NCBI RefSeq assembly: GCF_022045235.1
Contig: NW_027266286.1
Coordinates: forward strand, 1,191,856-1,255,855
Length of the DNA: 64,000 nt
Source: Haliotis cracherodii
Taxonomy: Eukaryota
Direction of reading: 5' to 3'
The notes beneath the pieces were generated by a model. The model ran no database searches, was not told the origin of the DNA, and saw only the letters and a program-made list of their open reading frames with translations. Positions within the stretch are counted from its first letter, which is position 1; each line of letters starts with the position of its first letter. Positions 6,631 through 46,590 of the stretch are shown here, one piece after another. The position numbers and the translations under genes were made by a program.

Positions 6631-6810
6631 CCTATGTTTGCTTTGGGGAACAGGTCCCAGATACAGTTGTGGTTCACCCCTGCCATGATGCATCTATTCT
6701 TGTCTGTTTTTAAAACTTGGTCCACTGAAACTTGCCTCAGTCATAAAGATGTAACAAATAATGTTTTGGTTGAAAACTTTAGCCAGTTCTAGAGCTGTTC
6801 AATCTGAGCA

Positions 6811-6982
6811 GGGGTGGTCTGGTAGCCTAGTGGTTAAAGCATTTGCTCACCACGCCGAAGACCCGAGTTCGATTCCCGACATCGGTACAATGTGTAAAGT
6901 CTATTTCTGGTGTCCCCCGCCGTAATAATTCTGGAATATTGCTAAAAGCTGCGTAAAATCCTACTCGTTCACTCACTCAATC
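6811..6982 (+). mobile_element. SINE family A copy
   Basis: ggtggtctggtagcctagtggttaaagc..cgagttcgattcccgac..ggtacaatgtgtaaag..ttctggtgtcccccgcc..attgctaaaagctgcgtaaaatcc..actcactcaatc. Confidence 0.6.
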
Positions 6983-8518: not shown

Positions 8519-9105
8519 GCTCACTCACTCACTCACTCACTCACTCACTCACTCACTCACTCACTCACACACTAAAACTGGTATAAACTGGTATAAACAG
8601 ATGTAGCCATGGTAGAAACAGATGAAGCCATGGTATAAATAGATGGAACTTCAGTATAAATAGATGGAACCTCAGTATAAATAGATGGAACCTCAGTATA
8701 AACAGATGTAGCCATGGTAGAAACAGATGAAGCCATGGTATAAATAGATGGAACCTCAGTATAAATAGATGGAACCTCAATATAACCAGATGGAGCCATG
8801 ATAGAAACAGATGGAGCCATGGTATAAATAGATGGAACCTCAGTATAAACAGATGTAGCCATGGAAGAAACAGATGAAGCCATGGTATAAATAGATGGAA
8901 CCTCAGTATAAACAGATGGAACCTCAATATAACCAGATGGAGCCATGATAGAAAGAGATGGAGCCATGGTATAAATAGATGGAACCTCAGTATAACAGAT
9001 GCCCATTTCAACTGTCCCCTGCCATGCTATTGCTGGAATATTGCTTAAAGCGGTGTAAAACCACACTCACTCACTCACTCACTCACTCACTCACTCACTC
9101 ACTCA
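8519..9105. repeat. 21-bp minisatellite (atagatggaacctcagtataa / acagatgRagccatggtaKaa) bounded on both sides by (CACT)n microsatellites
   Basis: (cactcact)n at 8519-8572 and 9058-9105. Track ORFs 8565..9011 and 8572..9066 are periodic artefacts. Confidence 0.8.
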
Positions 9106-11174: not shown

Positions 11175-11456
11175 CTGGAAAAGGAAGAAAAATACAATTA
11201 GTTGCTGGTTCGGGTCCAAATTGAGATTTAGTGGCAAGCTAGGAACATTTTGTATTTATTAGACAAATGAAGTATTTGTAAATTTCTTTTGCCGGACCTA
11301 CACCTATGTCCTAGCCTCTGACAACTCCAAGGCTATATATACTACAAAGAGTCATAGGTCTTCATAGGGGTTATTTCAACAAAATATTAATTTATGTTAG
11401 ATTTAAATAATGTCTTTGGTATTTATCTTCTCTCTGTGCTGGTAATCTAAATAAAT

Positions 11457-11606
11457 CGGGGCGGTCAGGTAACCTAGTGGTTTAAGCGTTCATTCATCAC
11501 GCCAAGACCCGGGTACGATTCCCATTTCTGGTGTCCCCCCTGCCGTGATATTGCTCGAATATTGCCAAAAGCGTCATAAAACCATATTTACTCACTCACT
11601 CACTCT
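11457..11606 (+). mobile_element. SINE family A copy (internal deletion)
   Basis: gggcggtcaggtaacctagtggtttaagcg..ttctggtgtcccccctgccgtgatattgc..aaaagcgtcataaaacc..(actc)n. Confidence 0.55.
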
Positions 11607-11904
11607 AAGTAAATCATAATGTCCAATATTTGTAGTTATATTTGCAGATAACAGATTAACTTCTACAGCAGCTGCTATGTATTATTATAAATCTTTACAT
11701 GATGATGGGACTCATCAGACTCAGTACTGTCCGCAATTAGTATCATCAGCGTCTTTACTTGTGTCGTTATTTTAAATACAAAAAATAAAGCAATAAAGAA
11801 TTCAATTGACATGCAAACATCAACCTATTTTTCATTCGGGAAATCAAGTCGCAAGCAGAAGCCTGTTGTCTTGCACTTGGAGGTACGCTACTGCATGTAA
11901 TGAT

Positions 11905-12677: not shown

Positions 12678-13212
12678 GCCTGTGTGGTCTAGTGGTAGAG
12701 CGTCCGCCCTGACAGCAGAAGGTCTGGGGTTTGATCCCCGGCTGCGTCATACCATAAGACGTTAAAAGATGGTACTTGTTGTTACCCTGTCTGGGGCTCG
12801 GGAATTAAAGGGCTAAAAACAAGGACTGGTCGGCTCGGAGTCAGTATACTGTGTCTGAGTGGGATATTCATGTTAAACTGTGGCATGGTATCTCAGTGGG
12901 CTAGCACTATAAATCGGCATCAGTCCGGACTAGTACAAGCAGCCACACACACACATACATGCATATCACTATTTAAGTGGGGGCGGTCGGGTAGCCTAGT
13001 GATTAAAGCGTTCGCTCGTCACGCCAATGACCCGGGTTCGATTCCCGACATGGGTACAATGTGTGAAGCCCATTTCTTGTGTCCCCCGCCGTGATATTGC
13101 TGGAATATTGCTAAAAGCCGCGTAAAACCATACTCACTCACTCACTCACTATTTAAGTGCAATAATCTTGGACGCGATGTTTAACCCCACTTCACCTCAC
13201 CTCACTACACAT
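12678..13212 (+). mobile_element. SINE family C (tRNA-derived head ggtctagtggtagagc..ggtttgatcccc, about 300 bp body, (CA)n, 3' cacctcacctcac) with SINE-A nested at 12980-13150
   Basis: Same element occurs at 1219-1514(+) and 32722-33052(-). The tRNA-like acceptor stem does not pair, so this is a SINE and not a tRNA gene. Confidence 0.6.
12980..13150 (+). mobile_element. SINE family A (tRNA-like head gggcggtcgggtagcctagtggttaaagcg..gggttcgattccc; tail ttgctaaaagcggcgtaaaacc + (ACTC)n) with 13-bp TSD cactatttaagtg
   Basis: Direct repeats cactatttaagtg at 12967-12979 and 13147-13159 flank the insert. The interrupted sequence is contiguous in the other SINE-C copy (..tataaatgcaataatcttg..). Confidence 0.7.
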
Positions 13213-13476: not shown

Positions 13477-13634
13477 GGGCAGTCAGGTAGCCTAGTGGTT
13501 TAAGCGTTCACTCGTCACGCCGAAGACCAGACATGGGTACAATGTGTGAAGCCCATTTCTGGTGTCCCCCATCGGGATATTGCTGGAATATTGCTAAAGG
13601 CAGTGTCAAATCATATTCACTCACTCACTAACTC
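13477..13634 (+). mobile_element. SINE family A copy
   Basis: gggcagtcaggtagcctagtggtttaagcg..ggtacaatgtgtgaagcccatttctggtgtccccc..ttgctaaaggcagtgtcaaatc..cactcactcactaactc. Confidence 0.55.
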
Positions 13635-13639
13635 ATGTG

Positions 13640-17780: not shown

Positions 17781-18999
17781 TGGAGGAAACACTATGTCAT
17801 TCATACACCCAGTCACTCTTTGATACAATCACTCATGCTGTCATTCGTTCATTCACCCGTTCGTTCATGCATTCATTAATTCATTCACATAACCCTTCAC
17901 TCATACTTCAACTTGATCACTCTTTCCCCAAGTCATTGAATCACTGTATTTTGTCACTGACTGAATTGTTTTGAGACAGTGACCGTGGCGTTGTAGTGGA
18001 GGAGATGGTGGTATCAGTGCAGCATGTATGTCTTCCTGATCAGTCGACATCGAGACCGTGGCACCTAACACACAAGGAACAAACAGGGTTGCGGCCTCCT
18101 AACAACCACTGCAGATTGTTGCAAGGCATATTCCGTGTTGACCCAGGAAGTCAATGTCCTTGTGCACAATGGGTTATCATAATAACTACAAACATCCTGA
18201 ACACAATGTGAGTGTTTAGATTGAGGACATGATAAACAACTTTGACAGCTTTCATAGAAAAGGATGATGTTTCTATTGTTGAGTGACGTGATGACATGTT
18301 GTTGCTGCAATGACATCCTCATTAATCCAGGTTGTTATATCTCCACTCAATCTTGATAAAAAAAACCTGGACATTCTCTACCAATACCCAGTTGCCTCTT
18401 ACAACACTGTTTTTTCAATCATTTCTGTGAATTTGAGAAAATTGTGACTATAATGTATTCCTGTGCCACTTCATTGTTGATGTTCATGCTATCAACCACT
18501 GGTTTGTTTACTTCAACCCGGCAAATATTGAACATCAGGGAGTCCTTTCAACTCATGACAAGCTGACAGTTTCCTCCTCACGACAACTTGATAAACAGAC
18601 TTGTTATCTGGGTGGGATGTTCCTGTGATGGCCTTGGTGGCGATTGTGGTAGAAGACGGGCGTATTTCTGTGTTCACCAGGACGTGTATTTATTTGCTCA
18701 CTGAAAATCCTTATGCTGATCATGACCTAACTCCTACAATCATGTTAATTATTTAATCAATTTATTAAAATGTGCATCTGGTGTGCACAATGACTGAACG
18801 CAGAAAAAGAATATGCTGTGTCCTGAGGGACCACAATAATACTCATTGTACCCACAGCGCATGAAGAACAGTTGTTGGTGTCTGTTATTTCATCCCTCAA
18901 TCAATCAATTATCTAAACATACAGCACACTACACCATTTCATTACTTTACAGGACATCCAAATTGCCAACAAGGACCCTTAAAATGAGGGTAGGTGGGG

Positions 19000-19153
19000 T
19001 AGGCTAGTTGTTAAAGTGTTCGCTTATCACGCCGAAGATCCAGGTTCAATTCCCCACATAAATACAATGTTTGAAGCCCATTTCTGGTGTCTCGTGCCAT
19101 GATATTGCTGGAATATTTCTAAAAGGAGCATAAAACAATACTCCCTCACTCAC
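19000..19153 (+). mobile_element. SINE family A copy (diverged) immediately upstream of the 48-bp array
   Basis: ggtaggctagttgttaaagtg..ccaggttcaattcccc..aatgtttgaagcccatttctggtgtc..attgctggaatatttctaaaagga..ctcactcacc. Confidence 0.5.
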
Positions 19154-21499: not shown

Positions 21500-22335
21500 T
21501 GTCTGTTTTATTGATTGCTGTATGTTGTATTGACTGCTGTATGTTGTATTGACTGCTGTATGTTGTATTGATTGCTGTGTTGTATTGATTGCTGTATGTT
21601 GTATTGATTGCTGTGTTGTATTGATTGCTGTATGTTGTATTGACTGCTGTATGTTGTATTGACTGCTGTATGTTGTATTGATTCCTCTGTTGTATTGATT
21701 GCTGTATGTTGTATTGACTGCTGTATGTTGTATTGATTGCTGTATGTTGTATTGACTGCTGTATGTTGTATTGACTGCTGTATGTTGTATTGATTGCTGT
21801 GTTGTATTGATTCCTCTGTTGTATTGATTGCTGTATGTTGTATTGATTCCTCTGTTGTATTGATTGCTGTATGTTGTATTGATTGCTGTGTTGTATTGAT
21901 TGCTGTATGTTGTATTGACTGCTGTATGTTGTATTGATTGCTGTATGTTGTATTGACTGCTGTATGTTGTATTGATTGCTGTATGTTGTATAGATTACTG
22001 TATGTTGTATTGATTGCTGTGTTGTATTGATTGCTGTATGTTGTATAGATTACTGTATGTTGTATTGACTGCTGTATGTTGTATTGACTGCTGTGTTGTA
22101 TTGACTGCTGTATGTTGTATTGACTGCTGTATGTTGTATTGATTGCTGTGTTGTATTGATTCCTCTGTTGTATTGATTGCTGTATGTTGTATTGATTGCT
22201 GTATGTTGTATTGATTGCTGTATGTTGTATTGATTGCTGTATGTTGTATTGATTGCTGTATGTTGTATTGATTGCTGTATGTTGTATTGATTGCTGTGTT
22301 GTATTGATTGCTGTATGTTATATTGATTGCTGTGT
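21500..22335. repeat. 21-bp minisatellite tgtattgaYtgctgtatgttg (about 40 units), nearly AG-free, ending about 40 bp upstream of the exon A acceptor
   Basis: Unit resembles the acceptor-proximal sequence caatgtatgttgtattgcag. Only rare AG dinucleotides (e.g. tatagattactg variants). Confidence 0.85.
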
Positions 22336-22378
22336 TTTATGCATAATGATGTACTGATCAATGTATGTTGTATTGCAG

Positions 22379-22490
22379 TTACTACAAATTGGACAACACA
22401 GAGCAGGACATCATTAACAAGTATCTGTCTGGCTTGGTAGAGAAGGCACTGATAGAACTCGAGGGTTCTTACTGTCTGCAAGTTGGTGAG
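22379..22490 (+). CDS. SNRNP200: U5 snRNP 200 kDa helicase (Brr2) exon, C-terminal Sec63 region; encodes (t)YYKLDNTEQDIINKYLSGLVEKALIELEGSYCLQVGE
   Basis: Acceptor tgtattgcag|tt, donor GAG|gtgagt. Translation aligns with human SNRNP200 YYNL..[30 protein letters not shown] from memory. Phase links to next exon. Homology recalled, not searched. Confidence 0.75.
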
Positions 22491-23440
22491 GTGAGTGATG
22501 GAACGTGAGGGTTCTTACTGTCTGCAAGTTGGTGAGGTGAGTGATGGAATGTGAGGGTTCTTACTTTCGGCAAATTGGTGAGGTGAGTGATGTAATGTGA
22601 GGGTTCTTACTGTCTGCAAGTTGGTGAGGTGAGCAATGTGAGGGTTCTTACTGTCTGCAAGTTGGTGAGGTGATTGATGGAACGTGAGGGTTCTTACTGT
22701 CTGCAAGTTGGTGAGTTGAGCGATGGAACATGAGAGTTCTTACTGTCTGAAAGTTGGTGAGGTGAGCAATGTGAGGGTTCTTACTGTCTGCAAGTTGGTG
22801 AGTTGAGCGATGGAACATGAGGGTTCTTACTGTCTGCAAGTTGGTGAGGTGAGTGACGGAATGTGAGGGTTCTTACTGTCTGCAAGTTGGTGAGGTGAGT
22901 GATGGAACGCGAGGGTTCTTACTGTCGGCGAGTTGGTGAAGTGAGTGATGTAATGTGAGGGTTCTTACTGTCTGCATGTTGGTGAGTTGAGCGATGGAAC
23001 ATGAGGGTTCTTACTGTCTGCAAGTTGGTGAGGTGAGCAATGTGAGGGTTCTTACTGTCTGCAAGTTGGTGAGGTGATTGATGGAACGTGAGGGTTCTTA
23101 CTGTCTGCAAGTTGGTGAGTTGAGCGATGGAACATGAGAGTTCTTACTGTCTGCAAGTTGGTGAGGTGAGCAATGTGAGGGTTCTTACTGTCTGCAAGTT
23201 GGTGAGTTGAGTGACGGAATGTGAGGGTTCTTACTGTCTGCAAGTTGGTGAGGTGAGTGATGGAACCTCGAGGGTTCTTACTGTCTGCAAGTTGGTGAGG
23301 TGAGTGACGGAATGTGAGGGTTCTTACTGTCTGCAAGTTGGTGAGGTGAGTGATGGAACGCGAGGGTTCTTACTGTCTGCAAGTTGGTGAGGTGAGAGAT
23401 GGATCTTGAAGCTTCCTACTGTTTGCAAGTTGGTGAGAGC
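22461..23440. repeat. 45-46-bp minisatellite (about 21 units), each unit a copy of the SNRNP200 exon A 3' end plus its 5' splice site (gagggttcttactgtctgcaagttggtgag|gtgagtgatggaaYgt)
   Basis: The first unit is the authentic exon end and donor; the rest follow head-to-tail in the intron. Every unit retains GAG|GTGAGY. Confidence 0.9.
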
Positions 23441-23689
23441 CTTAGACAGTAGTATGATTGAAACCCTTGTACTTCTTCGAAACATAAATGGTACATGTTT
23501 TTGTGATGGTCTGAAACATCTCTCCCTCAGAGGATGGAGCAAAGAAGATGCAAATGTGCTTCTTAAATACCAACTTCATTGAACATTGCCCCATTTTAGT
23601 ATTATGTCTCCCCCCTTAACATTTTTATCCGGATGAGAGTTACCCAGCATATGGTATTTATTCTTCTGTGACACGGGGGCAGAATGCTC

Positions 23690-24125
23690 TCCTGTATGTC
23701 CTAGAGATGCTCTCCTGTATGTCCTAGAGATGCTCTCCCATATGTCCTAGAGATGCTCTCCCATACGTCCTAGAGATGCTCTCCTGTATGTCTTAGAGAT
23801 GCTCTCCTGTACGTCCTAGAGATGCGCTCCCATATGTTCTAGAGATGCTTTACTATATGTCTTAGAGATGCTCTCCTGTACGTCCTAGAGATGCTCTCCC
23901 ATATGTTCTAGAGATACTATCCTGTACATCCTAGAGATGCTCTCCTATATGTCCTAGAGATGCTCTGCCATACGTCCTAGAGATACTCTCCTGTACATCC
24001 TAGAGATGCTCTCCTGTATGTCCTAGATATGCTCTCCTGTATGTCCTAGATATGCTCTCCTGTACATCCTAGAGATGCTCTCCTGTATGTCCTAGAGATG
24101 CTCTCCTGTATGTCCTAGATATGTA
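23690..24125. repeat. 23-bp minisatellite ctagagatgctctcctgtatgtc (about 19 units), ending about 60 bp before the exon B acceptor
   Basis: Tandem copies visible. Confidence 0.85.
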
Positions 24126-24187
24126 TGACAGTGATACAGCTATCCACATACTCTGTGTTCATGTTAAGACGATGTGTGTGTTTCCAG

Positions 24188-24322
24188 GACAACCGCAGCA
24201 TCACGCCGCTGACCCTCGGCCGCATCTCCTCCTACTACTACCTCAACCACAACACTGTGCGCATGTTCTGTAACGAACTCAAGGCTGAGTCGACACTGCC
24301 AGAACTCTTGGACATCTTGTCT
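24188..24322 (+). CDS. SNRNP200: SNRNP200 exon; DNRSITPLTLGRISSYYYLNHNTVRMFCNELKAESTLPELLDILS
   Basis: Acceptor tgtgtgtttccag|gac, donor TCT|gtaagt, 45 codons in phase 0. Matches human [43 protein letters not shown]. Confidence 0.88.
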
Positions 24323-25390: not shown

Positions 25391-25446
25391 AATGCCCACG
25401 AGTATGCGGAGCTCCCAGTCCGCCACAATGAGGACCAGATCAACAG
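25391..25446 (+). CDS. SNRNP200: SNRNP200 exon; NAHEYAELPVRHNEDQIN(+ag)
   Basis: Acceptor ttaattcccag|aat, donor ACAG|gtaggt. Matches human [20 protein letters not shown]. Ends in phase 2. Confidence 0.85.
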
Positions 25447-25785: not shown

Positions 25786-25954
25786 CGACCTGGCCCAGAA
25801 GGTCCCCCTGGCGGTGAACCCCCACTCGTACGACTCCGCCCACACCAAAACCCACATCCTGCTGCAGGCTCACTTCTCCCAGATGCAGCTGCCGTCCACC
25901 GACTACTACACCGATACCAAGTCTGTCCTGGACCAGGCTATCAGGATCCTCCAG
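25786..25954 (+). CDS. SNRNP200: SNRNP200 exon; (S)DLAQKVPLAVNPHSYDSAHTKTHILLQAHFSQMQLPSTDYYTDTKSVLDQAIRILQ
   Basis: Acceptor tttcctggtag|c, donor CAG|gtgggt. Strong match to human [54 protein letters not shown]. GC-rich codon usage versus AT-rich flanks. Confidence 0.9.
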
Positions 25955-25959
25955 GTGGG

Positions 25960-28900
25960 TCACCTCAACCTCCCCTCAACCCCATCAAAGCCCTCAACTT
26001 CCCACAACCCCCCTCAACTTCCCACAAACCCCACAACTTCCCACAACTCTCCTCAATCCCCCTCAACCTCCCCTCAACCCCCTTTAACTCCCCTCAATCC
26101 CCCCTCAAGTCCCCTCAACTCCCCATAATTCCCCTCAACTCCTCATAACTCAACTCAACCTCCCCCCCACCCCCGTCAAACCAACACCCCTCAACCCCAC
26201 AACTCCCTTAGTCCCTGAATCCCTGAATCCCCTTCTCAACCAGCTCACACTTCTTACACACAACCTAAAATCCCTCAGACCCTTCAACACCACTCAAACA
26301 CCCTCACACAACCTCAAACAGCTCAAACTCACACCCCACAAGCCCCTACCCCTCACCCATCTCATCTCTCAGTGATGGACCAAGCCACCCTAGCACACCC
26401 TAGCACATCCCAACACACCCCAGCACACCCCAGCACACCCTAGCATGCCCTAGCACATTAGCACACCCTAGCACACCATAGCACACCCCAGTACACCCTA
26501 TCATGCCCTAGCACACCCTAGCACACCCCAGCACACCCTAGCATGCCCTAGCATGCCCTAGTACACCCTAGCACACCCTAGCATGCCCTAGTACACCCTA
26601 GCACACCCTAGCACACCCTAGTACACCCCAGTACACCCTAGCACACCCCAGTACACCCTAGCATGCCCTAGTACACCCTAGCACACCCTAGCACACCCTA
26701 GCACACCCCAGTACACCCTAGCATGCCCTAGTACACCCTAGCACACCCTAGCACACCCTAGCATGCCCTAGCACACCCTAGCACACCCCAGTACACCCTA
26801 GCACACCCTAGCACGCCCTAGCACACCCTAGCATGCCCTAGCACACCCTAGCACACCCCAGTACACCCTAGCATGCCCTAGTACACCCTAGCACACCCTA
26901 GTACACCCTAGCATGCCCTAGCATGCCCTAGCACACCCTAGCATGCCCTAGTACACCCTAGCACACCCTAGTACACCCTAGCATGCCCTAGCACACCCTA
27001 GCACACCCCAGTACACCCTAGCATGCCCTAGCACACTCCAGTACACCCTAGCATGCCCTAGCACACCCCAGCACACCCCAGTACACCCTAGCACACCCTA
27101 GCATGCCCTAGCACACCCCAGTACACCCTAGCATGCCCTAGTACACCCTAGCACACCCTAGCACACCCCAGTACACCCTAGCATGCCCTAGTACACCCTA
27201 GCACACCCTAGCACACCCCAGTACACCCTAGCATGCCCTAGTACACCCTAGCACACCCCAGTACACCCTAGCACACCCCAGTACACCCTAGCATGCCCTA
27301 GTACACCCTAGCACACCCTAGCACACCCTAGTACACCCTAGCACACCCTAGCACACCCTAGCATGCCCTAGTACACCCTAGCACACCCCAGTACACCCTA
27401 GCATGCCCTAGTACACCCTAGCACACCCTAGCACACCCTAGCACACCCTAGTACACCCCAGTACACCCTAGCACACCCCAGTACACCCTAGCATGCCCTA
27501 GTACACCCTAGCACACCCTAGCATGCCCTAGCACACCCTAGCACACCCAGGCACACTCCAGTACACCCTAGCATGCCCTAGTACACCCTAGCACACCCTA
27601 GCACACCCTAGCACACCCTAGTACACCCCAGTACACCCTAGCACACCCCAGTACACCCTAGCATGCCCTAGTACACCCTAGCACACCCTAGCACACCCTA
27701 GCATGCCCTAGCACACCCTAGCACACTCCAGTACACCCTAGCATGCCCTAGCACACCGTAGCACACTCCAGTACACCCTAGCACACCCTAGCACACCCTA
27801 GCATGCCCTAGCACACCCTAGCACACCCCAGTACACCCTAGCACACCCTAGCACGCCCTAGCACACCCTAGCATGCCCTAGCACACCCTAGCACACCCCA
27901 GTACACCCTAGCATGCCCTAGTACACCCTAGCACACCCTAGTACACCCTAGCATGCCCTAGCACACCCTAGCATGCCCTAGTACACCCTAGCACACCCTA
28001 GCACACCCTAGTACACCCTAGCATGCCCTAGCACACCCTAGCACACCCCAGTACACCCTAGCATGCCCTAGCACACTCCAGTACACCCTAGCATGCCCTA
28101 GCACACTCCAGTACACCCTAGCATGCCCTAGCACACCCCAGCACACCCCAGTACACCCTAGCACACCCTAGCATGCCCTAGCACACCCTAGCACACCCCA
28201 GCACACTCCAGCACACCCTAGCACACCCCAGTACACCCTAGCACACCCTAGCACGCCCTAGCACACCCTAGCACACCCCAGTACACCCTAGCATGCCCTA
28301 GCACACCCTAGCACACCCCAGTACACCCTAGCATGCCCTAGCACACCCCAGCACACCCCAGTACACCCTAGCATGCCCTAGCACACCCCAGTACACCCTA
28401 GCATGTCCTAGCACACCCTAGCACACCCCAGCACACCCCAGTACACCCTAGCACACCCCAGTACACCCTAGCATGTCCTAGCACACCCTAGCACACCCCA
28501 GCACACCCCAGTACACCCTAGCACACCCTAGCATGCCCTAGCACACCCTAGCACACCCCAGTACACCCTAGCATGCCCTAGCACACCCTAGCACACCCTA
28601 GCATGCCCTAGCACACCCCAGTACACCCCAGTACACCCTAGCACACCCTAGCATGCCCTAGCACACCCTAGCACACCCCAGTACACCCCAGTACACCCTA
28701 GCATGCCCTAGCACACCCTAGCACACCCCAGTACACCCTAGCACACCCTAGCATGTCCTAGCACACTCTAGCACACCCTAGCACGTCCCAGTACACCCTA
28801 GCACACCCTAGCATGTCCTAGCATGCCCTAGCACACCCTAGCACACCCCAGCACACTCCAGCACGCCCTAGCACACCCTAGCACACCCCAGCACACCCCA

Positions 28901-28990
28901 GCACACCCTAGCACACCCCAGCACACTCCAGCACGCCCTAGCACACCCTAGCACACCCCAGCACACTCCAGTACACCCTAGCAGACTCCA
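25960..28990. repeat. Degenerate (cccctcaaY)n tract, then a 2.6 kb array of 10-bp cctagcacac variants (cctagtacac, cctagcatgc), in the SNRNP200 D-E intron
   Basis: Visible periodicity at 26340-28990. ORFs 25718..26128 and 28868..29101 are artefacts. Confidence 0.85.
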
Positions 28991-29809
28991 GCACGCCCAT
29001 TCCCACTCCACCCACTCTCCACTCCACAACCATTTCTTTCCCTGAGAACCATGTTCAACAAGTGTAGCTCCTTCCAGGCATGTGACACCTTCGGTACACA
29101 CTCGGTATCATCGCTGCCACCAGTGTGGGCGCGGCCATTACAAAAATCTTGAAATTTGGCCTCTAACCCCAAATGTAGTAAAGTTTATACTTTTGTTAAT
29201 GTCTTTGGGAATGCCATCACAGTTAATTTTGAAAAGGTTTACGACTGATCATATTTCCCAGATGAATTTACATTTTTGTTTGATTGATCGGATTGGTTCG
29301 AGATTGCAGACAAACAGAAATTCAACCAACTTCCCCCTTAATATAACAAATGTTATATTTGGGATAACACTTTCTTTGTATAGTACAGATTCTCGTACTT
29401 GTTTAGGTTGAGTTCCACCCACACATGCCAGAGTGAGGCACCTTATCGCCAGCACACAAAGCCACCAATCTAACCCACTCAGCCACCGAGGCTTCCACAA
29501 AATGAAAGTCCAACAACTGGTAGTCTAGATCACGTACTTTGTGTACCCCTCTGAACAAATTTCTGTGCAAATTGGCACAGCTCCCATGGCCGAAAGCTAT
29601 GAATACTCATTGCATTTAGAAAGTGGTCAAATGTACATTCTTATTTTACCAGTTACATGATAGTTGTAATGAAAATAGAAATTCAAACTGGGAAACAAAG
29701 AAAATAATTAAGCTGGGGTAAGAGTATTCAGCGTCACGGCAGTCATCAATTGTTTCTAAACATAACTGTCAGTCGACTGCGAGTTCAACACCAAGCATGG
29801 TTGTAGCCA

Positions 29810-30431: not shown

Positions 30432-30583
30432 GCCATGCTGGATGTGTCAGCGGACCAGGGATGGTTGGCGACGTCACTGCGGGTGATTCAACTGATCCAG
30501 ATGGTGGTGCAAGGTCGATGGCTGGAGGACTCGACCCTCCTCACCCTCCCTAACGTCATGCCCTACCATGTGTACTGCTTCAG
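30432..30583 (+). CDS. SNRNP200: SNRNP200 exon; AMLDVSADQGWLATSLRVIQLIQMVVQGRWLEDSTLLTLPNVMPYHVYCF(+ag)
   Basis: Acceptor cacctcacag|gcc, donor CAG|gtacgt. Matches human [50 protein letters not shown]. Phase 0 continuity with the previous exon (..AIRILQ|AM..). Confidence 0.88.
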
Positions 30584-31800
30584 GTACGTAGAGTCCCATC
30601 ATGCACTGCTTCAGGTACGTACAGTCCCATCATGCACTGCTTCAGGTACGTACAGTCCCATCATGCCCTGCTTCAGGTATATACAGTCCCATCATGCACT
30701 GCTTCAGGTACGTACAGTTCCGTCATGCACTGCTTCAGGTATATACAGTCCCATCATGCACTGCTTCAGGTACGTACAGTCCCATCATGCACTGCTTCAG
30801 GTACGTACAGTCCCATCATGCCCTGCGTCAGGTACGTACAGTCCCATCATGCACTGTGTCAGGTATGTATACTCCCATCAGGCACTGTGTCAGTTATGTA
30901 CAGTCCCATCATGCCTAGCGTTAGTTATGTACACTCCCATCATGCACTGTGTCAGTTACATACAGTCCCATCATGCACTGCCTCAGTTATGTACACTCCC
31001 ATCATGCACTGCCTCAGTTATGTACACTCCCATCATGCACTGCCTCAGTTATGTACACTCCCATCATGCACTGCATCAGTTACGTACACTCCCATCATGC
31101 ACTGTGTCAGTTACGTACACTCCCATCATGCACTGCCTCAGTTATGTACACTCCCATCATGCACTGCATCAGTAACGTACACTCCCATCATGCACTGTGT
31201 CAGGTATGTACACTCCCATCATGCCCTGCCTCAGTTATGTACACTCCCATCATGCACTGTGTCAGGTATGTACACTCCTATCATGCACTGCCTCAGTTAT
31301 GTACACTCCCATCATGCACTGCGTCAGTAACGTACACTCCCATCATGCCCTGCCTCAGTTATGTACACTCCCATCATGCACTGCCTCAGTTACGTACAGT
31401 CCCATCATGCTCTGCCTCAGTTATGTACACTCCCATCATGCACTGCGTCAGGTACGTAAGCTCCCATCATGCACTGCCTCAGTTATGTACACTCCCATCA
31501 TGCACTGCCTCAGTTACGTACAGTCCCATCATGCACTGCCTCAGTTATGTACACTCCCATCATGCACTGCCTCAGTTACGTACACTCCCATCATGCACTG
31601 CCTCGGGTACGTACACTCCCATCATGCCCTGCCTCAGTTATGTACACTCCCATCATGCCCTGCCTCAGTTACGTACACTCCCATCATGCACTGCCTCGGG
31701 TACGTACACTCCCATCATGCCCTGCCTCAGTTATGTACACTCCCATCATGCCCTGCCTCAGTTACGTACACTCCCATCATGCACTGCGTCAGGTATGTAC
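30571..31800. repeat. 31-bp minisatellite (about 39 units) derived from the exon E 3' end plus donor (catgcactgcttcag|gtacgtacagtcccat). It fills essentially the whole 1.26 kb E-F intron.
   Basis: Authentic junction is ..tgtactgcttcag|gtacgtagagtcccat. Proximal units keep CAG|GTACGT; most distal units have CAG|TTATGT or CAG|TTACGT (GT lost). Confidence 0.9.
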
Positions 31801-31845
31801 ACTCCTACTGTATAAAGTGACAGACAGGACATGTTGTTTGTTCAG

Positions 31846-31996
31846 GCCCCGAGGTGGAGGCGCCAGGCAGAAAGGTTTCCCAGAGCTGCGAGGACCAATC
31901 GAAACTCTCCCAGAGCTTGTGGCGGTGTGTGAGGGGAAGTTTGAGGCCCTGGCTGCCATGTTGAATGGTGAAATGAACCAGACAGAGATTGATCAG
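31846..31996 (+). CDS. SNRNP200: SNRNP200 exon; (R)PRGGGARQKGFPELRGPIETLPELVAVCEGKFEALAAMLNGEMNQTEIDQ
   Basis: Acceptor tgtttgttcag|g, donor CAG|gtgagg. Starts in phase 1 and ends in phase 0. Corresponds to human ..[32 protein letters not shown]. Confidence 0.8.
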
Positions 31997-32026: not shown

Positions 32027-32150
32027 AGTGAGTGTGTGAGTGAGTGAGTGAGTGAGTGAGTGAGTGAGTGAGCCCAGAAATGGGCTTCACATATTGTACC
32101 CATGTCGGGAATCGAACCCGGGTCTTTGGCATGACGAGCAAACGGTTTAA
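32027..32150 (-). mobile_element. SINE family A copy, 5'-truncated, 30 bp downstream of the SNRNP200 exon F donor
   Basis: (gagt)n tail, then RC of the body (cccagaaatgggcttcacatattgtacccatgtcgggaatcgaacccgggtc..). Lacks the tRNA head. Confidence 0.5.
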
Positions 32151-32341
32151 CTTCTGTGATGTATGTATTAACAGTTGACTTCTTTGATGTATGTATTAAC
32201 AGTTTACTTCTTTGATGTATGTATTAACAGTTTACTTCTTTGATGTATGTATTAACTGTTCACTTCTTTGAAATAAGTGATGATTTTAGAAATCATGTGG
32301 ACAGGTGTTTGTAGCAACAATGGTTATAATTTTCACTTCAG

Positions 32342-32456
32342 GTGTACCTCGTATTGAGTCGTCTGCCACAAATCCAGGTCTCTATCAAGGTCAAGGGATT
32401 CTGGGAAGGGTCAGAGGGGAAGGAGGAGGCGAGAATGGTCAATCTGTCCAACACAG
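32342..32456 (+). CDS. SNRNP200: SNRNP200 exon; VYLVLSRLPQIQVSIKVKGFWEGSEGKEEARMVNLSNT(+g)
   Basis: Acceptor tttcacttcag|gtg, donor ACAG|gtaggg. RLPQIQVSIKV matches human RYPNIELSYEV. The track ORF 32342..32653 reads through into the intronic (GAT)n. Confidence 0.82.
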
Positions 32457-33052: not shown

Positions 33053-33316
33053 ATGATGATGGCTTGGTAATGATCACAATGTTGATGACAGTGACATACT
33101 GACAACGATGACAATGTTGATGATGCTGACCATTTTAACGAAGATGACCCTGTTTACGACAGTGATGACCATTTTGACGAAGATGACCCTGTTTACGACA
33201 GTGATGATCATATTAACGATGATGATCATGTTTACGACAGTGATGCCCAACTAACACGAAAATGTTTTAAAAACATCCCTAAAACATTTTACGAAACGTT
33301 TTCTGGGAACATTTGT

Positions 33317-36619: not shown

Positions 36620-37260
36620 TTATGTGTTAGCTGGGTGATCATGATGATGATGACAATGATGATGTTGACGATGATGACCCTGTTTATGACAGTGATGATC
36701 ATGTTGATGATGATGATGATGATGTTGACGATGATGACCCTGTTTATGACAGTGATGATCATGTTGATGATAATGATCATGATCATGTTGACGATGATGA
36801 CCCTGTTTATGACAGTGATGATCATGTTGATGATGTTGATGATGATCATGTTGACGATAATGACCCTGTTTATGCAAGTGATGATCATGTTGATGATGAT
36901 GATGATGATCATCATGTTGACGATGATGACCCTGTTTATGACAGTGATGATCATGTTGATGATGATGATCATCATCATGTTGACGATGATGACCCTGTTT
37001 ATGACAGTGATCATGTTGATGATGATGATGATGATCATGTTGACGATGATGACCCTGTTTATGACAGTGATGATCATGTTGATGATGATGATCATCATCA
37101 TGTTGACGATGATGACCCTGTTTATGACAGTGATGATCATGTTGATGATGATGATGATGATGATGATGTTGACGATGATGACCCTGTTTATGACAGTGAT
37201 GATCATGTTGATGATGATGACAATAATGATGATGATGATGATGATGATGATGATCTGTTG
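36620..37260. repeat. About 60-bp array of (GAT)n + gttgacgatgatgaccctgtttatgacagtgatgatcatgtt, running to 3 bp before the exon H acceptor
   Basis: Right-hand terminal repeat of the GIY-YIG element. The poly-His minus-strand ORF 36620..37348 is an artefact. Confidence 0.85.
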
Positions 37261-37263
37261 CAG

Positions 37264-37355
37264 GTGGGCGGCGGCGAGATGCGGACTGGATCAAGGTCCA
37301 TGCTGACCAGGAGTATGTGCTGCAGGTCGACCTGGCCCGAGTTAACAAGACCCGG
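37264..37355 (+). CDS. SNRNP200: SNRNP200 exon; (G)GRRRDADWIKVHADQEYVLQVDLARVNKTR
   Basis: Acceptor ctgttgcag|gt lies directly after an intronic (GAT)n array with a weak pyrimidine tract. Donor CGG|gtgagt. Phase is consistent with both flanking exons. Corresponds to human GGPVVVLVQLEREEEV. Confidence 0.75.
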
Positions 37356-38195: not shown

Positions 38196-38519
38196 AAATA
38201 CGACACCAAGGCCCACAGTCCACGGTTCCCGAAGCCGAAGGACGAAGGCTGGATGCTGGTTGTGGGCGAGGTGGAGACCAAGGAACTCATCGCCCTCAAG
38301 CGGATGGGGTACGTGCGGAGTCGCTCCAAGGCCCAGCTCGCTCTGTACACCCCGGAGACGGTGGGGCGTGTCATCTACACCCTCTACCTGATGAGCGACG
38401 CCTACCTTGGTCTTGACCAGCAATACGACATCTGTCTGGACGTTGTGCCATCCAGCATCGAGACACAGGTCAACACGGAGCTCAAGGAGGAACTAGATGG
38501 GCTTGATTTTGATAGCTGA
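38196..38519 (+). CDS. SNRNP200: SNRNP200 terminal coding exon; KYDTKAHSPRFPKPKDEGWMLVVGEVETKELIALKRMGYVRSRSKAQLALYTPETVGRVIYTLYLMSDAYLGLDQQYDICLDVVPSSIETQVNTELKEELDGLDFDS*
   Basis: Acceptor ttgttacttcag|aaa; TGA stop at 38517-38519. Matches the human C-terminus [51 protein letters not shown]. 3'UTR follows; a candidate AATAAA sits at 39038-39043 (low confidence). Confidence 0.9.
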   Translation, partial: KYDTKAHSPRFPKPKDEGWMLVVGEVETKELIALKRMGYVRSRSKAQLALYTPETVGRVIYTLYLMSDAYLGLDQQYDICLDVVPSSIETQVNTELKEELDGLDFDS

Positions 38520-40269
38520 AAATATCTGGTATGATTGGATGAACATGAAGTTGGCTTCAGGAGAAAGAGTGTGCAACAATGTTGAATGGACTTGAATGTT
38601 GCCGGGAAACTGATGTGTCTTCTGTGAACATTCCACTCTGCTAACTTCCTCGACCGACATTTCTCGGAAGGCTTTATGTCTGGTTGAGTGAGTCCTGCAA
38701 GTCACCACGTTGCACCACACGTAGATGTTTACAGCAAAACCTCGCCAGTTCAGAGCTCATCGTCCGGAAACCTTTGGATGAATATTTTCCTTTTCTCTTT
38801 TTTTTTCTCTAGCATAAACATATTTATTTAATTTCTATTCAAACTACATGGGTTTTTTACACCTTTGTGACAGAGATATTATAGTGAGTTGTACACCTCT
38901 GATTCAGCCAAGTTCAATCAGGTCATGTTGTGTCGTGTGTGGGGGGGTTGAGGGAACATGTTTACATGTATACATGTCCATCATCTCACTGGGGTATTGT
39001 GCTGCTGAATCTCGGATCTATACAAGGCTTAAGATAAAATAAAAGAATCTGTTCTCAGTCAATGACTTTTGAAAATATAGTGCGGCGGGCGGATGGTTGG
39101 GCGTTTTTTTTGGTTTTTTTCGCTTGTTCAAACTAGTATGTAACCAAATAAACAGTTGTGTACCATCAACCTGGGAAAGAGCCTCCCAACATAAACAAAC
39201 ATACAAACTCCTATGGCCGCCATGACCAGTAAAGCAGTGCACATGTAAAGGGAAGTAACTGTGTGCTATATTAGATCGCATTGTGTTTAAGTAATAGGAT
39301 TTTTTGAAAATTGAAATAAAAACGAAACATGTGGCGGACTTCATGTGGGTGTGGGCTTTGCCTGAGAACCAAGACTATTATTTTTTTTAGCCCAATGTCC
39401 ATAGTTCAAATCCCATGAGGCGTGTGAGAAATGCTCTGGCCGTAGTACATCATAATATTTGATGTCTGATTTCACACTTGTCATCATGTATTATGTGATA
39501 TTTCTCTAGATGTTATGATGTGATTTCAACATTGAAATGCAAAGTGTTAACCCAGAAATGGGAACATACAGAACGAAAGTGTGAAATCAGTCAATGCTCA
39601 CACAAAATCAATGACCAATCAACAAGTTATATGGAAACACCCAACTTTAGGTTTAGAATCCACAAGGTGATACAAGAGGCAGGAGCAATGGGGGACAGGC
39701 CCTAGAATTAATGTCAGTGCACTCACAGATTATCAGAATATTGTCACCAGACCCTATGGCAGCCATGCCCGTTTGAGTGGCACAAGAGCCTAAAGTAACG
39801 TTTACAAATTTGGTTAGATCCACAATCTGCTGATTTACCAAGGATCATAATAATAGGTAATGAGATTTAAACAATAGGATCCTGCATGCCCAAGGGATGC
39901 AACTCTGCATATTGTCATGTCACTTTATCGTAGGGTAGCACAATACATGTTGTATCTTGGGGATGACATAGTGCTATTGCCACCCTCGATATCATTGCAG
40001 CCCTGACGTGGTGACAATCGATATTCTAGGATATCACATCGAGAAACTAAGAGATTCAATGATTCAACTGTTACAATATATATGATCAGTGATTCAATTG
40101 TTTGAGTGTACATGATCACTGATTCAACAATTCAATGTTTGAGTGGAAATAATGAGTCTATGGTTAGCATGTGATTGAGAGCTGTACAAATGTTTTATAA
40201 ATGTACATTTTGTAAAACATGCAATAAAATGTATTTAAAAAGAAACATCCTTTTTAACTTGTTTTGTAG

Positions 40270-40504
40270 TGAATGGGTGAGACGGTTTAACGCCACTTTG
40301 AACAGTATTTCAGTTATATCAAAGACCGAAGTGATGCAGGTCTCGGACGTTTGAAAAACCCATGAGCACAGGTATGGTGCTGACAAACCTAGCAACAAAT
40401 TCGGGCCAAACCGGGATTCGAACCCACAATCATAGGTTTCTGGCGTGCCTAAGGGACACAACTCTGCCCAGCGTATTGCGGCGTCTTAGATGACTGGGCC
40501 ACCT
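40270..40504 (-). mobile_element. SINE family B copy in the SNRNP200 3' flank
   Basis: Collinear with 8061-8332 (..gaaaaacccatgagcacaggtatggtgctgacaaacctagcaac..cgggattcgaacccacaatcataggtttctggcgtgcctaagggacacaactctgc..). Confidence 0.55.
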
Positions 40505-40685
40505 TTCTGGTCCTGGAGCCAAGATTAGACTGTGAGGAGGGTGAAGGAGTTAGTCAGTCCAGTGATCAACCGTCCACGTTGATGGGGTACAATGGCGCAA
40601 TCAAGCAAGTCACCATGTCTGACCACCATTTGGGTGCCTCTTACGACCGTCATAGGTTGCTGGGGACCAATTCTAACCCGGAATC

Positions 40686-40830
40686 GGGGCGGTGGGGTAG
40701 TCTAGTATTTAAAGCATTCACTCGTCACGCCAAAGACCTGGGTTCTGTTCCCCACATGGGTACAATGTGTGAAGCCCATTTCTGGTGTCCCCCACCATGA
40801 CATTGCTAAAAGCGGCATAAAATCAGACTC
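40686..40830 (+). mobile_element. SINE family A copy immediately 5' of the 24-bp mega-array
   Basis: cggggcggtggggtagtctagtatttaaagc..ctgggttctgttcccc..ggtacaatgtgtgaagcccatttctggtgtccccc..attgctaaaagcggcataaaatc. Confidence 0.55.
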
Positions 40831-40894
40831 GCTATATGACAAACCTGGAATATATCCATTTCATGAGTTTACTGAGGCACTCAAAAGCATATTT

Positions 40895-46435: not shown

Positions 46436-46590
46436 AGGGTTGGTTGGGTAGCCTAGTGGTTAAAGCGTTCGCTCGTTGGTTCGATTCCTGACATGGGTAC
46501 AATGTGTGAAGCCCATTTCTGGTGTCCCCTGCCATGATATTGCTGGAATATTGCTAAAAGCGGCGTAAAACCATACTCACTCCCTCACTC
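46436..46590 (+). mobile_element. SINE family A copy (internal deletion)
   Basis: gggttggttgggtagcctagtggttaaagcgttcgctcgttggttcgattcctgacatgggtacaatgtgtgaagcc..ttgctaaaagcggcgtaaaaccatactcactccctcactc. Confidence 0.55.

What the first reader, a model, noticed from the sequence alone, without database searches (positions are those of the whole stretch)
22461..23440. Minisatellite made of about 21 tandem copies of an authentic 5' splice site plus the last 30 nt of the exon
The SNRNP200 exon A end ..caagttggtgag|gtgagt is followed head-to-tail by about 21 further copies of the same 45-46-bp exon-end plus donor unit, each keeping GAG|GTGAGY. This makes an array of strong cryptic 5' splice sites immediately downstream of the real one. 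Use of any distal copy would add 45-46 nt per unit and hit an in-frame TGA (gtg agt gat gga acg TGA). The array is therefore either ignored by the spliceosome (first-donor choice), or a source of NMD-targeted isoforms, or variable between alleles. This array and the two described in the next two findings are three instances of the same junction-amplification mechanism.
Basis: seen in the sequence. Interest (0 to 1): 0.85.

Follow-up and report, generated by a model that had tools for sequence, protein, structure and literature searches.

The report
Intronic minisatellite copying an exon-end splice donor
The last 30 bases of an ASCC3 exon (not SNRNP200) plus its splice donor are repeated 22 times head-to-tail at the start of the following intron. 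This is a real but already described kind of repeat ("mirage" minisatellites in amphioxus; the human F7, IFI6 and CBS intron VNTRs), which cells normally tolerate by using the first donor.

Summary
The array is real. There are 22 head-to-tail units of 41-47 nt at 22461-23437, and unit 1 is the true exon end plus donor (GAG|GTGAGT; exon ends at 22490).

Two details in the finding are wrong:
- The gene is ASCC3, not SNRNP200 (E 2.6e-166 vs 6.6e-79).
- Not every copy keeps the donor. Of the 21 downstream units, 15 keep GT, 11 keep GAG|GTGAGY (7 are identical 9-mers), and 6 have lost GT.

The in-frame TGA 16 nt past the true junction is confirmed.

Only donor 1 joined to the acceptor at 24188 gives a product colinear with human ASCC3. 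An orthologous contig has the same intron, 325 nt long, with no repeat.

A second and larger array in the same gene repeats the exon E end plus donor about 40 times (30575-31805). Tandem arrays make up 44% of the window.

This class is already known. Amphioxus "mirages" and human junction-spanning VNTRs (F7 IVS7, IFI6, CBS, LMNB2, PDGFA) are documented. In F7, experiments show that the most upstream donor wins.

Verdict: a new member of a known kind. It is most likely a passively tolerated, lineage-specific minisatellite. Splicing behaviour and allele variation cannot be tested here. Interest is low to moderate.

The parts
22379..22490 (+). ASCC3 exon 'A' (112 nt), encoding ..YYKLDNTEQDIINKYLSGLVEKALIELEGSYCLQVGE. 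Its last 30 nt (22461-22490) form the exonic part of repeat unit 1.
   Evidence: It has a canonical acceptor (ttgcag|TT) and donor (GAG|gtgagt). The spliced product aligns colinearly with human ASCC3 residues 1373-1802 of chain 8alz_B at E 2.6e-166. The orthologous exon in L004 ends at the same codon.
22488..22496 (+). Authentic 5' splice site GAG|GTGAGT (cleavage after 22490). It matches the MAG|GTRAGT consensus at 8 of 9 positions.
   Evidence: Only this donor, joined to 24188, gives ..QVGE|DNRSI.., which aligns without a gap to human ..IGE|DNRSI...
22461..23437 (+). Junction-spanning minisatellite of 22 units. Each unit is a 30-nt exon end plus an 11-17 nt intron start. TRF extends the array to 22450.
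   Evidence: Higher-order structure is present: units 4, 5 and 6 are identical to units 13, 14 and 15, unit 7 differs from unit 16 by one base, and units 9 and 10 are identical to units 19 and 20.
22506..22508 (+). In-frame TGA, 16-18 nt into the intron. It would terminate any transcript that uses a downstream pseudo-donor.
   Evidence: the stop falls at codon 6 for every possible extension.
22537..23393 (+). Span containing 15 pseudo-donors with an intact GT. The G of each GT is at 22537, 22583, 22629, 22670, 22762, 22849, 22895, 22941, 23033, 23074, 23166, 23253, 23300, 23346 and 23392. Seven of these sites are 9-mers identical to the authentic site. Units 6, 8, 12, 15 and 17 carry GAG|TT instead.
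23438..23683 (+). Non-repetitive stretch of intron A-B.
23684..24123 (+). An unrelated 23-nt minisatellite (19 copies) in the same intron. It ends 64 nt before the acceptor. Together the two arrays cover 82% of the 1697-nt intron.
24188..24322 (+). ASCC3 exon 'B' (DNRSITPLTLGRISSYYYLNHNTVRMFCNELKAESTLPELLDILS). The acceptor AG is at 24186-24187.
30432..30583 (+). ASCC3 exon 'E', ending ..ACTGCTTCAG|GTACGT.
30575..31805 (+). A second junction-spanning minisatellite of about 40 units of 31 nt. Each unit holds the last 9-10 nt of exon E, the donor GTACGT and 21 nt of intron. The array fills 97% of intron E-F.
   Evidence: Sixteen units, including the authentic one, keep GT. Units 1-10 all keep it. 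23-24 units carry TT or TA.

Best explanation
This is a 'mirage'-type intronic minisatellite.

Origin. A ~46-bp segment spanning the exon A / intron boundary of an ASCC3 gene was duplicated in tandem. The copies were then amplified and reshuffled by the usual minisatellite processes of replication slippage and unequal exchange. Because the duplicated segment contained the donor, every new copy landed downstream of the authentic donor, inside the intron.

Handling. The gene still works because the spliceosome uses the first donor it meets after the exon's 3' splice site. This fits exon definition and 5'-to-3' 'oriented scanning'. Any transcript that uses a distal copy gains 46 nt per unit and meets a TGA 16 nt past the true junction, so it would be an NMD substrate.

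The array is therefore a tolerated by-product of a locus and genome that are extremely prone to minisatellites. It is not a designed element.

Shown here: the anatomy, the gene identity, the fact that only donor 1 gives the conserved protein, the lineage specificity, and the multi-unit turnover.
Inferred: the first-donor choice, the NMD of leaked transcripts, and length polymorphism.
For: Anatomy and exon-to-array direction:
- Unit 1 is contiguous with a coding exon whose sequence is orthologous to L004 and to human ASCC3. The repeat was therefore copied from the exon and not the reverse.

Only donor 1 is productive:
- Colinear alignment with human ASCC3 across the A|B junction.
- A stop at codon 6 for every alternative donor.

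Lineage-specific and not conserved:
- The ortholog in L004 has the same phase-0 intron (GAG|gtcagt ... acag|GAC). That intron is 325 nt long, and the 5.4-kb contig has no tandem repeat at all.

Growth by unequal exchange:
- Identical multi-unit blocks, plus TRF periods of 133 and 179.

General tendency to form minisatellites:
- 44% of the window is tandem array.
- Arrays cover 82%, 74% and 97% of three ASCC3 introns.
- A second donor-spanning array lies at exon E.

No sign of another function:
- No Rfam family.
- No stable RNA structure around the donors, z = +1.17.
- No ORF of note on either strand.

Precedent:
- Amphioxus mirages in Adh3, TnC, globin and PGBD5 duplicate splice sites without producing aberrant mRNA.
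- In human F7 IVS7 only the most upstream of 5-9 identical donors is used, although the others are functional.
Against: - No RNA data for this organism could be reached, so use of donor 1 and the level of leak are inferred.
- In IFI6 and CBS the two nearest pseudo-sites are used constitutively, so some use of units 2-3 here is plausible.
- The exon-derived 27 nt of the units diverge far less (1.7%) than the intronic tail (24%). Pure neutrality does not predict this. I attribute it to CpG decay in the tail, plus exchange with the selected unit 1, but this was not tested.
- Two donor-spanning arrays among 8 donors is more than the 0.25 expected from random seeding (Poisson P = 0.027). The test is post hoc, because the region was chosen for this feature.
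Confidence: 0.82

Rival explanations
1. Functional decoy or regulated unproductive splicing. On this view the array of strong donors is maintained so that a tunable fraction of ASCC3 pre-mRNA is spliced from a distal donor, acquires the TGA and is degraded by NMD. Alternatively, the clustered U1-binding sites help recruit U1 to, or protect, a repeat-rich transcript.
For: Fifteen pseudo-donors keep GT, and 7 are identical to the authentic 9-mer. Every extension carries a premature stop upstream of 8 further exons. The exon-derived part of the units is unusually uniform. IFI6 and CBS do use proximal pseudo-sites.
Against: The array is absent from the ortholog in L004. Six of the 21 copies have lost the donor, and others are weakened. 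In F7, identical pseudo-sites are silent. The same architecture occurs at exon E, where there is no nearby stop, so a PTC is not a consistent feature. The locus is full of unrelated arrays.
Confidence: 0.07
2. Junction-targeted amplification. On this view, tandem arrays in this genome are seeded preferentially at 5' splice junctions by a process coupled to transcription or splicing, and not by random duplication followed by selective filtering.
For: Two of 8 donor junctions in 16 kb carry arrays that begin inside the exon, against 0.25 expected (P = 0.027). Other arrays start 8 and 30 nt after donors, or end 19-70 nt before acceptors. The closest relative, L005, has amplified its CDS end together with the stop codon.
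Against: The test is post hoc on a window chosen for this feature. With acceptors included, P = 0.09. Most arrays in the window have units unrelated to any junction. The donor/acceptor asymmetry is what selection alone predicts if the most upstream site wins. Extra donors downstream are then harmless, and extra acceptors upstream are harmful (inference).
Confidence: 0.08
3. Assembly artefact. On this view the array, or its copy number, results from mis-assembly of a repetitive region.
For: Ebner et al. noted that one mirage in the amphioxus draft genome was aberrantly assembled. Copy number in arrays of about 1 kb can be mis-estimated.
Against: The units carry a structured set of variants: 41-nt and 46-nt forms, GT/TT variants, and multi-unit blocks. 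This is typical of real minisatellites. The array is under 1 kb, so long reads would span it. About 30 independent arrays of similar character lie in the same window.
Confidence: 0.04

Closest known systems
Amphioxus 'mirage' minisatellites. Found in Adh3 (Canestro et al. 2002, NAR 30:2871), troponin C, globin genes BflGb6 and BflGb9 (PMC3087553), and PGBD5 (PMC3902484).
   Same: Mirages are tandem arrays whose unit spans an intron-exon boundary and therefore repeats the splice signal. Adh3 units are 10-72 bp. Many but not all copies keep AG or GT. The copies are 81-100% alike and show concerted evolution. Mirages occur in genes whose introns are rich in minisatellites. The array here matches all of these sequence-level features.
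   Different: The host organism of this window could not be identified. Normal splicing and length or somatic instability were shown for mirages but cannot be tested here. This example is in ASCC3, which is not among the genes named in the papers read here. With 22 units (and 40 at exon E) it is larger than the globin examples (3-6 units).
Human F7 intron 7 37-bp VNTR (Borensztajn et al. 2006, PMC1557585).
   Same: The first monomer spans the exon-intron boundary, so the authentic donor is followed by identical pseudo-donors. The array lies at the very start of the intron.
   Different: The F7 unit contains only 4 nt of exon, compared with 30 or more here. F7 has 5-9 copies, compared with 22 here. 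The F7 donor is weak (UGG/gugggu), whereas this one matches the consensus at 8 of 9 positions. In the F7 study pseudo-sites with a consensus value up to 91 stayed silent, but those with a value of 100 were partly used. Leak from strong sites is therefore more plausible here.
Other human junction-spanning intronic minisatellites: IFI6 (6-16) intron 2 with 25 pseudo-sites, CBS IVS13 with 15-20 repeats, LMNB2, and PDGFA intron 4. All are as listed in PMC1557585.
   Same: The architecture is the same and the copy numbers are similar (15-25). [quoted passage not shown]
   Different: They occur in different genes and lineages, and RNA evidence exists for them but not here. Use of pseudo-sites here would always introduce a stop codon.
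Intron gain by tandem duplication of an AG|GT-containing segment (Rogers' model, cited in PMC3087553).
   Same: A tandem duplication that includes splice signals creates new potential splice sites.
   Different: No new intron or exon has been created here. The copies lie within a pre-existing intron whose position is conserved in the L004 ortholog.

Membership tests
Mirage minisatellite (junction-spanning intronic tandem repeat) | Head-to-tail array of minisatellite-sized units (about 10-160 bp) | tested here: met
   There are 22 units of 41-47 nt, with a TRF score of 1428.
Mirage minisatellite (junction-spanning intronic tandem repeat) | The unit spans an exon-intron boundary, so the splice signal is reiterated | tested here: met
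   Unit 1 is the last 30 nt of a homology-verified ASCC3 exon plus GTGAGT. Fifteen further units keep GT.
Mirage minisatellite (junction-spanning intronic tandem repeat) | Regular splicing of the host gene is not disturbed | not testable with these tools
   No transcript data are available. The only indirect evidence is that donor 1 alone yields the conserved protein.
Mirage minisatellite (junction-spanning intronic tandem repeat) | Length instability or allelic polymorphism with concerted evolution of the units | tested here: inconclusive
   Identical multi-unit blocks and a degenerate edge unit indicate turnover. No second haplotype or individual was available.
Mirage minisatellite (junction-spanning intronic tandem repeat) | Host is a cephalochordate (this applies to the name as coined, not to the mechanism) | not testable with these tools
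   No eukaryotic genome collection was available. Exon GC3 of 0.75, window GC of 0.435 and 44% tandem arrays are compatible with a cephalochordate but are not diagnostic.
F7-IVS7-type VNTR with silent 5' pseudo-sites | The first monomer contains the authentic donor, and later monomers carry sites identical in sequence | tested here: met
   Seven downstream 9-mers are identical to GAG|GTGAGT.
F7-IVS7-type VNTR with silent 5' pseudo-sites | Only the most upstream donor is used, and the pseudo-sites are functional but out-competed | not testable with these tools
   This needs RNA-seq or minigene assays.
   The 434-aa spliced product scores E 2.6e-166 (557 bits) against ASCC3, colinear over residues 1-429. 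Against SNRNP200 it scores 6.6e-79 (269 bits), with the best stretch covering residues 1-205. Pfam finds a Sec63 domain.
Recursive (ratchet) splice site | A polypyrimidine tract and YAG immediately followed by a GT donor | tested here: not met
   Array A units read ..caagttggtGAG|GTGAGT. Position -3 is G and the preceding 10 nt are purine-rich. Array E units (ctgcttCAG|GTACGT) do fit at the sequence level, but their function is untested.

The most novel reading that the evidence does not exclude
The donor-spanning arrays might not be passive. They could be seeded preferentially at 5' splice junctions by a transcription- or splicing-coupled process. Or they could be retained because clusters of U1-binding pseudo-donors tune ASCC3 output through NMD. 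In array E, they could instead act as self-regenerating recursive splice sites (CAG|GTACGT) that let the spliceosome remove the repeat stepwise. Three observations leave a little room for this: the mild excess of donor-spanning arrays (2 observed against 0.25 expected), the strong uniformity of the exon-derived part of the units, and the recurrence of GT-to-TT variants in both arrays.
Probability: 0.07. Interest if true: 0.6.

Novelty: new member of a known kind. Interest (0 to 1): 0.25.

Why it matters
As a class this is not new, but the locus is a good natural test of 5' splice-site choice. An essential helicase gene carries two arrays, of 22 and about 40 units. Each has 15 intact pseudo-donors directly after the real donor. 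One array has an immediate stop codon, and the other stays open in frame for about 197 codons.

If RNA data for the organism are available, junction counts would show whether the 'most upstream donor wins' rule established for human F7 holds for near-consensus donors and for arrays this long.

It is also a practical warning for gene annotation. Spliced aligners and gene predictors can place the exon end at any of many identical donors.

Tried and rejected
1. Full-length orthologs. Searching the large protein database with the exon A+B peptide returned only two short metagenomic fragments. I therefore used human ASCC3 sequence recalled from memory as a local tblastn probe only. I then validated the resulting 434-aa model against the real PDB chain.
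2. The exon upstream of exon A. Neither tblastn nor motif searches found it in 1-22378. That intron must exceed 22 kb, or the exon lies outside the window.
3. RNA structure masking the donors. Folding exon A plus four units gave z = +1.17, no better than shuffled sequence. Rejected.
4. A known RNA family or tRNA in the array. None was found. There were only two weak tRNA-like hits elsewhere in the window.
5. A coding function for the array on either strand. Only short repeat-derived ORFs of up to 94 aa were found. Rejected.
6. Selection against pseudo-donors. GT-to-TT is a frequent variant in both arrays, but its rank among variable columns is not significant (naive joint p of about 0.07). Left as a hint.
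7. Micro-exon or recursive use of the GAG|G and GAG|GT motifs in array A. The AG is preceded by purines, and the implied introns would be about 19 nt. Rejected on sequence grounds.
8. Identifying the organism. No paper cites the related contig sets, and no eukaryotic genome collection is searchable. Unresolved.
9. The original mirage paper (PMC117041) is not held in the library. Its content is cited only through PMC3087553 and PMC3902484.

Full report

Yes. Tandem Repeats Finder reports a period-46 array at 22450-23437. It has 21.9 copies, 86% matches and a score of 1428, and the same array also appears with higher-order periods of 133 and 179. Anchoring on the conserved core splits it into 22 units starting at 22461. 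Sixteen units are 46 nt, four are 41 nt (units 4, 7, 13, 16), one is 47 nt, and the last is a degenerate partial unit.

The 27-mer GGTTCTTACTGTCTGCAAGTTGGTGAG occurs 22 times with at most 3 mismatches, 16 of them exact. Every copy lies in the array, and none was found in 100 shuffles.

**2. Which gene and which exon?**

The exon A+B peptide matches human ASCC3 far better (E 1.2e-30) than SNRNP200 (3.6e-15).

I mapped the downstream exons with a local tblastn probe and refined the splice sites by hand. Nine exons, all with canonical AG/GT sites, splice into one open frame of 434 aa that ends at a stop codon. The exons are:
- A 22379-22490
- B 24188-24322
- C 25391-25446
- D 25786-25954
- E 30432-30583
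- F 31846-31996
- F2 32342-32456
- G 37264-37355
- H 38196-38519

This product aligns colinearly with ASCC3 chain 8alz_B residues 1373-1802 at E 2.6e-166. SNRNP200 scores 6.6e-79, with its best stretch covering residues 1-205. Pfam finds a Sec63 domain. The gene is therefore the 3' part of an ASCC3 ortholog. No upstream ASCC3 exon lies in 1-22378.

The junction made by the first donor and the acceptor at 24188 reads ..QVGE|DNRSI.., matching human ..IGE|DNRSI.. with no gap. The first donor is thus the productive one.

**3. Anatomy of the array**

Each unit consists of 30 nt identical or nearly identical to the exon end (GAGGGTTCTTACTGTCTGCAAGTTGGTGAG), followed by 11-17 nt of intron start (GTGAGTGATGGAACGT and variants).

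The 21 downstream units divide as follows:
- 7 carry a 9-mer identical to the authentic GAG|GTGAGT (units 2, 3, 9, 10, 18, 19, 20).
- 4 carry GAG|GTGAGC.
- 1 carries GTGAGA.
- 2 carry GTGATT.
- 1 carries GAA|GTGAGT.
- 5 carry GAG|TTGAG, with the GT lost (units 6, 8, 12, 15, 17).
- The last unit has no donor.

So 15 pseudo-donors keep GT, and 11 keep GAG|GTGAGY. 'Each keeping' is an overstatement. The in-frame TGA at 22506-22508 is confirmed, and it truncates any extension whichever distal donor is used.

Divergence from unit 1 is uneven. It is 1.7% in the exon-derived 27 nt, 9.4% in the donor 9-mer and 24% in the tail, which contains a CpG.

Units 4, 5 and 6 are identical to units 13, 14 and 15. 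Unit 7 differs from unit 16 by one base. Units 9 and 10 are identical to units 19 and 20. Unit 17 looks like a hybrid of the unit 8 and unit 9 types. A block of about 7 units was therefore duplicated, which is the signature of unequal exchange.

TRF extends the array 11 nt further into the exon, where 8 of 11 bases match the unit tail. There are two possible readings. Either the original duplicated segment held about 41 nt of exon and only GTGAG of intron, or a pre-existing short direct repeat seeded the slippage. I cannot tell which.

**4. Surroundings**

Tandem arrays make up 44% of the window. They cover 82%, 74% and 97% of introns A-B, D-E and E-F.

Intron E-F is a second and larger case of the same thing. 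Exon E ends ..ACTGCTTCAG|GTACGT, and the 31-nt unit CTGCTTCAG|GTACGTACAGTCCCATCATGCA is repeated about 40 times (30575-31805). Units 1-10 all keep CAG|GT, and 23-24 of the later units carry TT or TA. No in-frame stop occurs for 197 codons.

Acceptor-side arrays come close to the 3' splice sites, ending 19-126 nt before them, but none includes the AG or any exon sequence.

There is nothing else in the array:
- No Rfam family.
- No tRNA.
- No unusual RNA stability around the donors, z = +1.17.
- No meaningful ORF on either strand.

**5. Relatives**

A scan of metagenome contigs with the 434-aa product returned five loci.

L004 (about 61-72% aa identity) contains the orthologous exon A. It ends ..GTCGGCGAG|gtcagt, is followed by a plain 325-nt intron, and then acag|GACAAC. 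The intron position and phase are the same, but the whole 5.4-kb contig has no tandem repeat. The exon end is therefore ancestral, and the array is a lineage-specific derivative of it.

L005 is the closest relative, with 85% aa and 84.7% nt identity in the terminal exon. In degenerate form, it has amplified the last ~70 nt of its CDS, including the stop codon, at least six times into the 3' UTR. The window itself lacks those copies. Local amplification of gene-boundary segments thus seems to recur in this lineage.

**6. How it most likely works**

Origin (inferred from the anatomy): a tandem duplication spanning the donor junction placed a second exon-end-plus-donor inside the intron. Slippage and unequal exchange then expanded it.

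Tolerance (inferred from precedent): the spliceosome uses the first donor downstream of the exon's acceptor. In human F7 IVS7, 5-9 identical donors follow one another and only the most upstream is used. The others are functional and take over in order when the upstream ones are mutated. Pseudo-sites with a consensus value up to 91 do not compete. In IFI6 and CBS the two nearest pseudo-sites are also used, so some leak from units 2-3 is plausible here. Such transcripts would carry a premature stop upstream of eight exon junctions and should be NMD substrates. This rests on established knowledge of EJC-dependent NMD and was not tested.

The same 'upstream site wins' logic explains the asymmetry in this gene. 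Donor-side junction arrays are tolerated, while acceptor-side arrays stop short of the AG (inference).

The uniformity of the exon-derived part may reflect exchange with the selected unit 1, plus CpG decay in the tail (inference).

I found no significant evidence of selection against pseudo-donors (joint naive p of about 0.07). The excess of donor-spanning arrays over random seeding is post hoc and borderline (2 observed against 0.25 expected, P = 0.027).

**7. Comparison with what is known**

Tandem repeats spanning exon-intron boundaries were named 'mirages' in amphioxus Adh3. They have since been reported in amphioxus troponin C, globin (BflGb6, BflGb9) and PGBD5 genes. Many but not all copies keep AG/GT, splicing is normal, and length is unstable.

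Human examples with the first monomer spanning the boundary include F7, IFI6, CBS, LMNB2 and PDGFA.

The array here meets every sequence-level criterion of this class. The RNA-level and population-level criteria cannot be tested with these tools. I could not identify the organism. GC3-rich exons (0.75), a GC-poor window (0.435) and minisatellite-filled introns are compatible with a cephalochordate, but that is only an inference.

**8. Verdict**

This is a real feature, correctly located and largely correctly described, but it sits in ASCC3 and belongs to a known class. The novelty rating is 'new member of a known kind'.

Interest is low to moderate (0.25). Its value is as a natural test case for 5' splice-site selection, with two long arrays of near-consensus pseudo-donors in one essential gene, and as a warning for annotation.

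Noticed in passing
window 30575-31805 (exon E ends at 30583): A second junction-spanning minisatellite of about 40 units of 31 nt. Each unit repeats the exon E end plus donor (CTGCTTCAG|GTACGT...), and the array fills 97% of intron E-F. Units 1-10 keep GT, and most distal units carry TT. There is no in-frame stop for 197 codons, so the donors of units 4, 7 and 10 would give in-frame insertions that escape NMD. Each intact unit also looks like a recursive splice site (YYYCAG|GTAYGT).
   Followed up: partly
window 21500-22378: The 19-nt array (45 copies) upstream of exon A has a unit (TGTATGTTGTATTGATTGC) that shares 14 nt with the polypyrimidine tract of the exon A acceptor (TGTATGTTGTATTG|CAG). 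The unit itself lacks the AG. Only two AG dinucleotides occur in the 877 nt before the acceptor.
   Followed up: partly
window 36642-37244 and the acceptor at 37262-37263: A 63-nt array of GAT-rich units (9.6 copies) ends 19 nt before the exon G acceptor. The acceptor region (GATGATCTGTTGCAG) resembles part of the unit (GATGATCATGTTGAC). A related GAT-rich array lies at 33107-33249.
   Followed up: no
whole window: About 44% of the 64 kb is tandem array, in roughly 30 distinct minisatellites with unrelated units. Examples are a 4.9-kb array of a 24-mer at 40906-45804 and a 2.6-kb array of a 10-mer at 26386-28998. Arrays cover 74-97% of three ASCC3 introns.
   Followed up: partly
window 6810-6980, 8998-9085, 11452-11609, 12980-13150, 13477-13635, 18987-19153, 40686-40833, 46436-46590 (+) and 32074-32151 (-): A dispersed SINE-like element of about 170 nt occurs at these sites. 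One copy contains a weak Rfam tRNA hit, and some copies have a (CACT)n tail. Five of the nine copies have a tandem array or microsatellite starting within 85 nt of their 3' end, against about 0.04 expected per copy. The array units differ from site to site. Neither donor-spanning array has such an element beside it.
   Followed up: partly
L005 (FXBE01011323.1) 134-1100: In the closest relative found (85% aa identity in the terminal exon), the last ~70 nt of the ASCC3 CDS, including the stop codon (GACTTTGATGACTGA), recurs in at least 6 degenerate copies through the 3' UTR. The window's own 3' UTR (38520-40900) lacks these copies.
   Followed up: partly
L004 (JAAUYG010042885.1) 1821-2260: The orthologous exon A / exon B pair has the same phase-0 intron position. 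The intron is a plain 325 nt, and the whole 5.4-kb contig contains no tandem repeat.
   Followed up: yes
window 1-22378: No ASCC3 exon upstream of exon A was detected. The preceding intron is therefore longer than 22 kb and is filled with minisatellites and SINE-like copies, or the upstream exons lie outside the window.
   Followed up: partly
window 32027-32072: An (AGTG)n microsatellite starts 30 nt after the exon F donor. It is a run of overlapping GTGAGT donor-like hexamers, and it adjoins an inverted partial copy of the SINE-like element.
   Followed up: no
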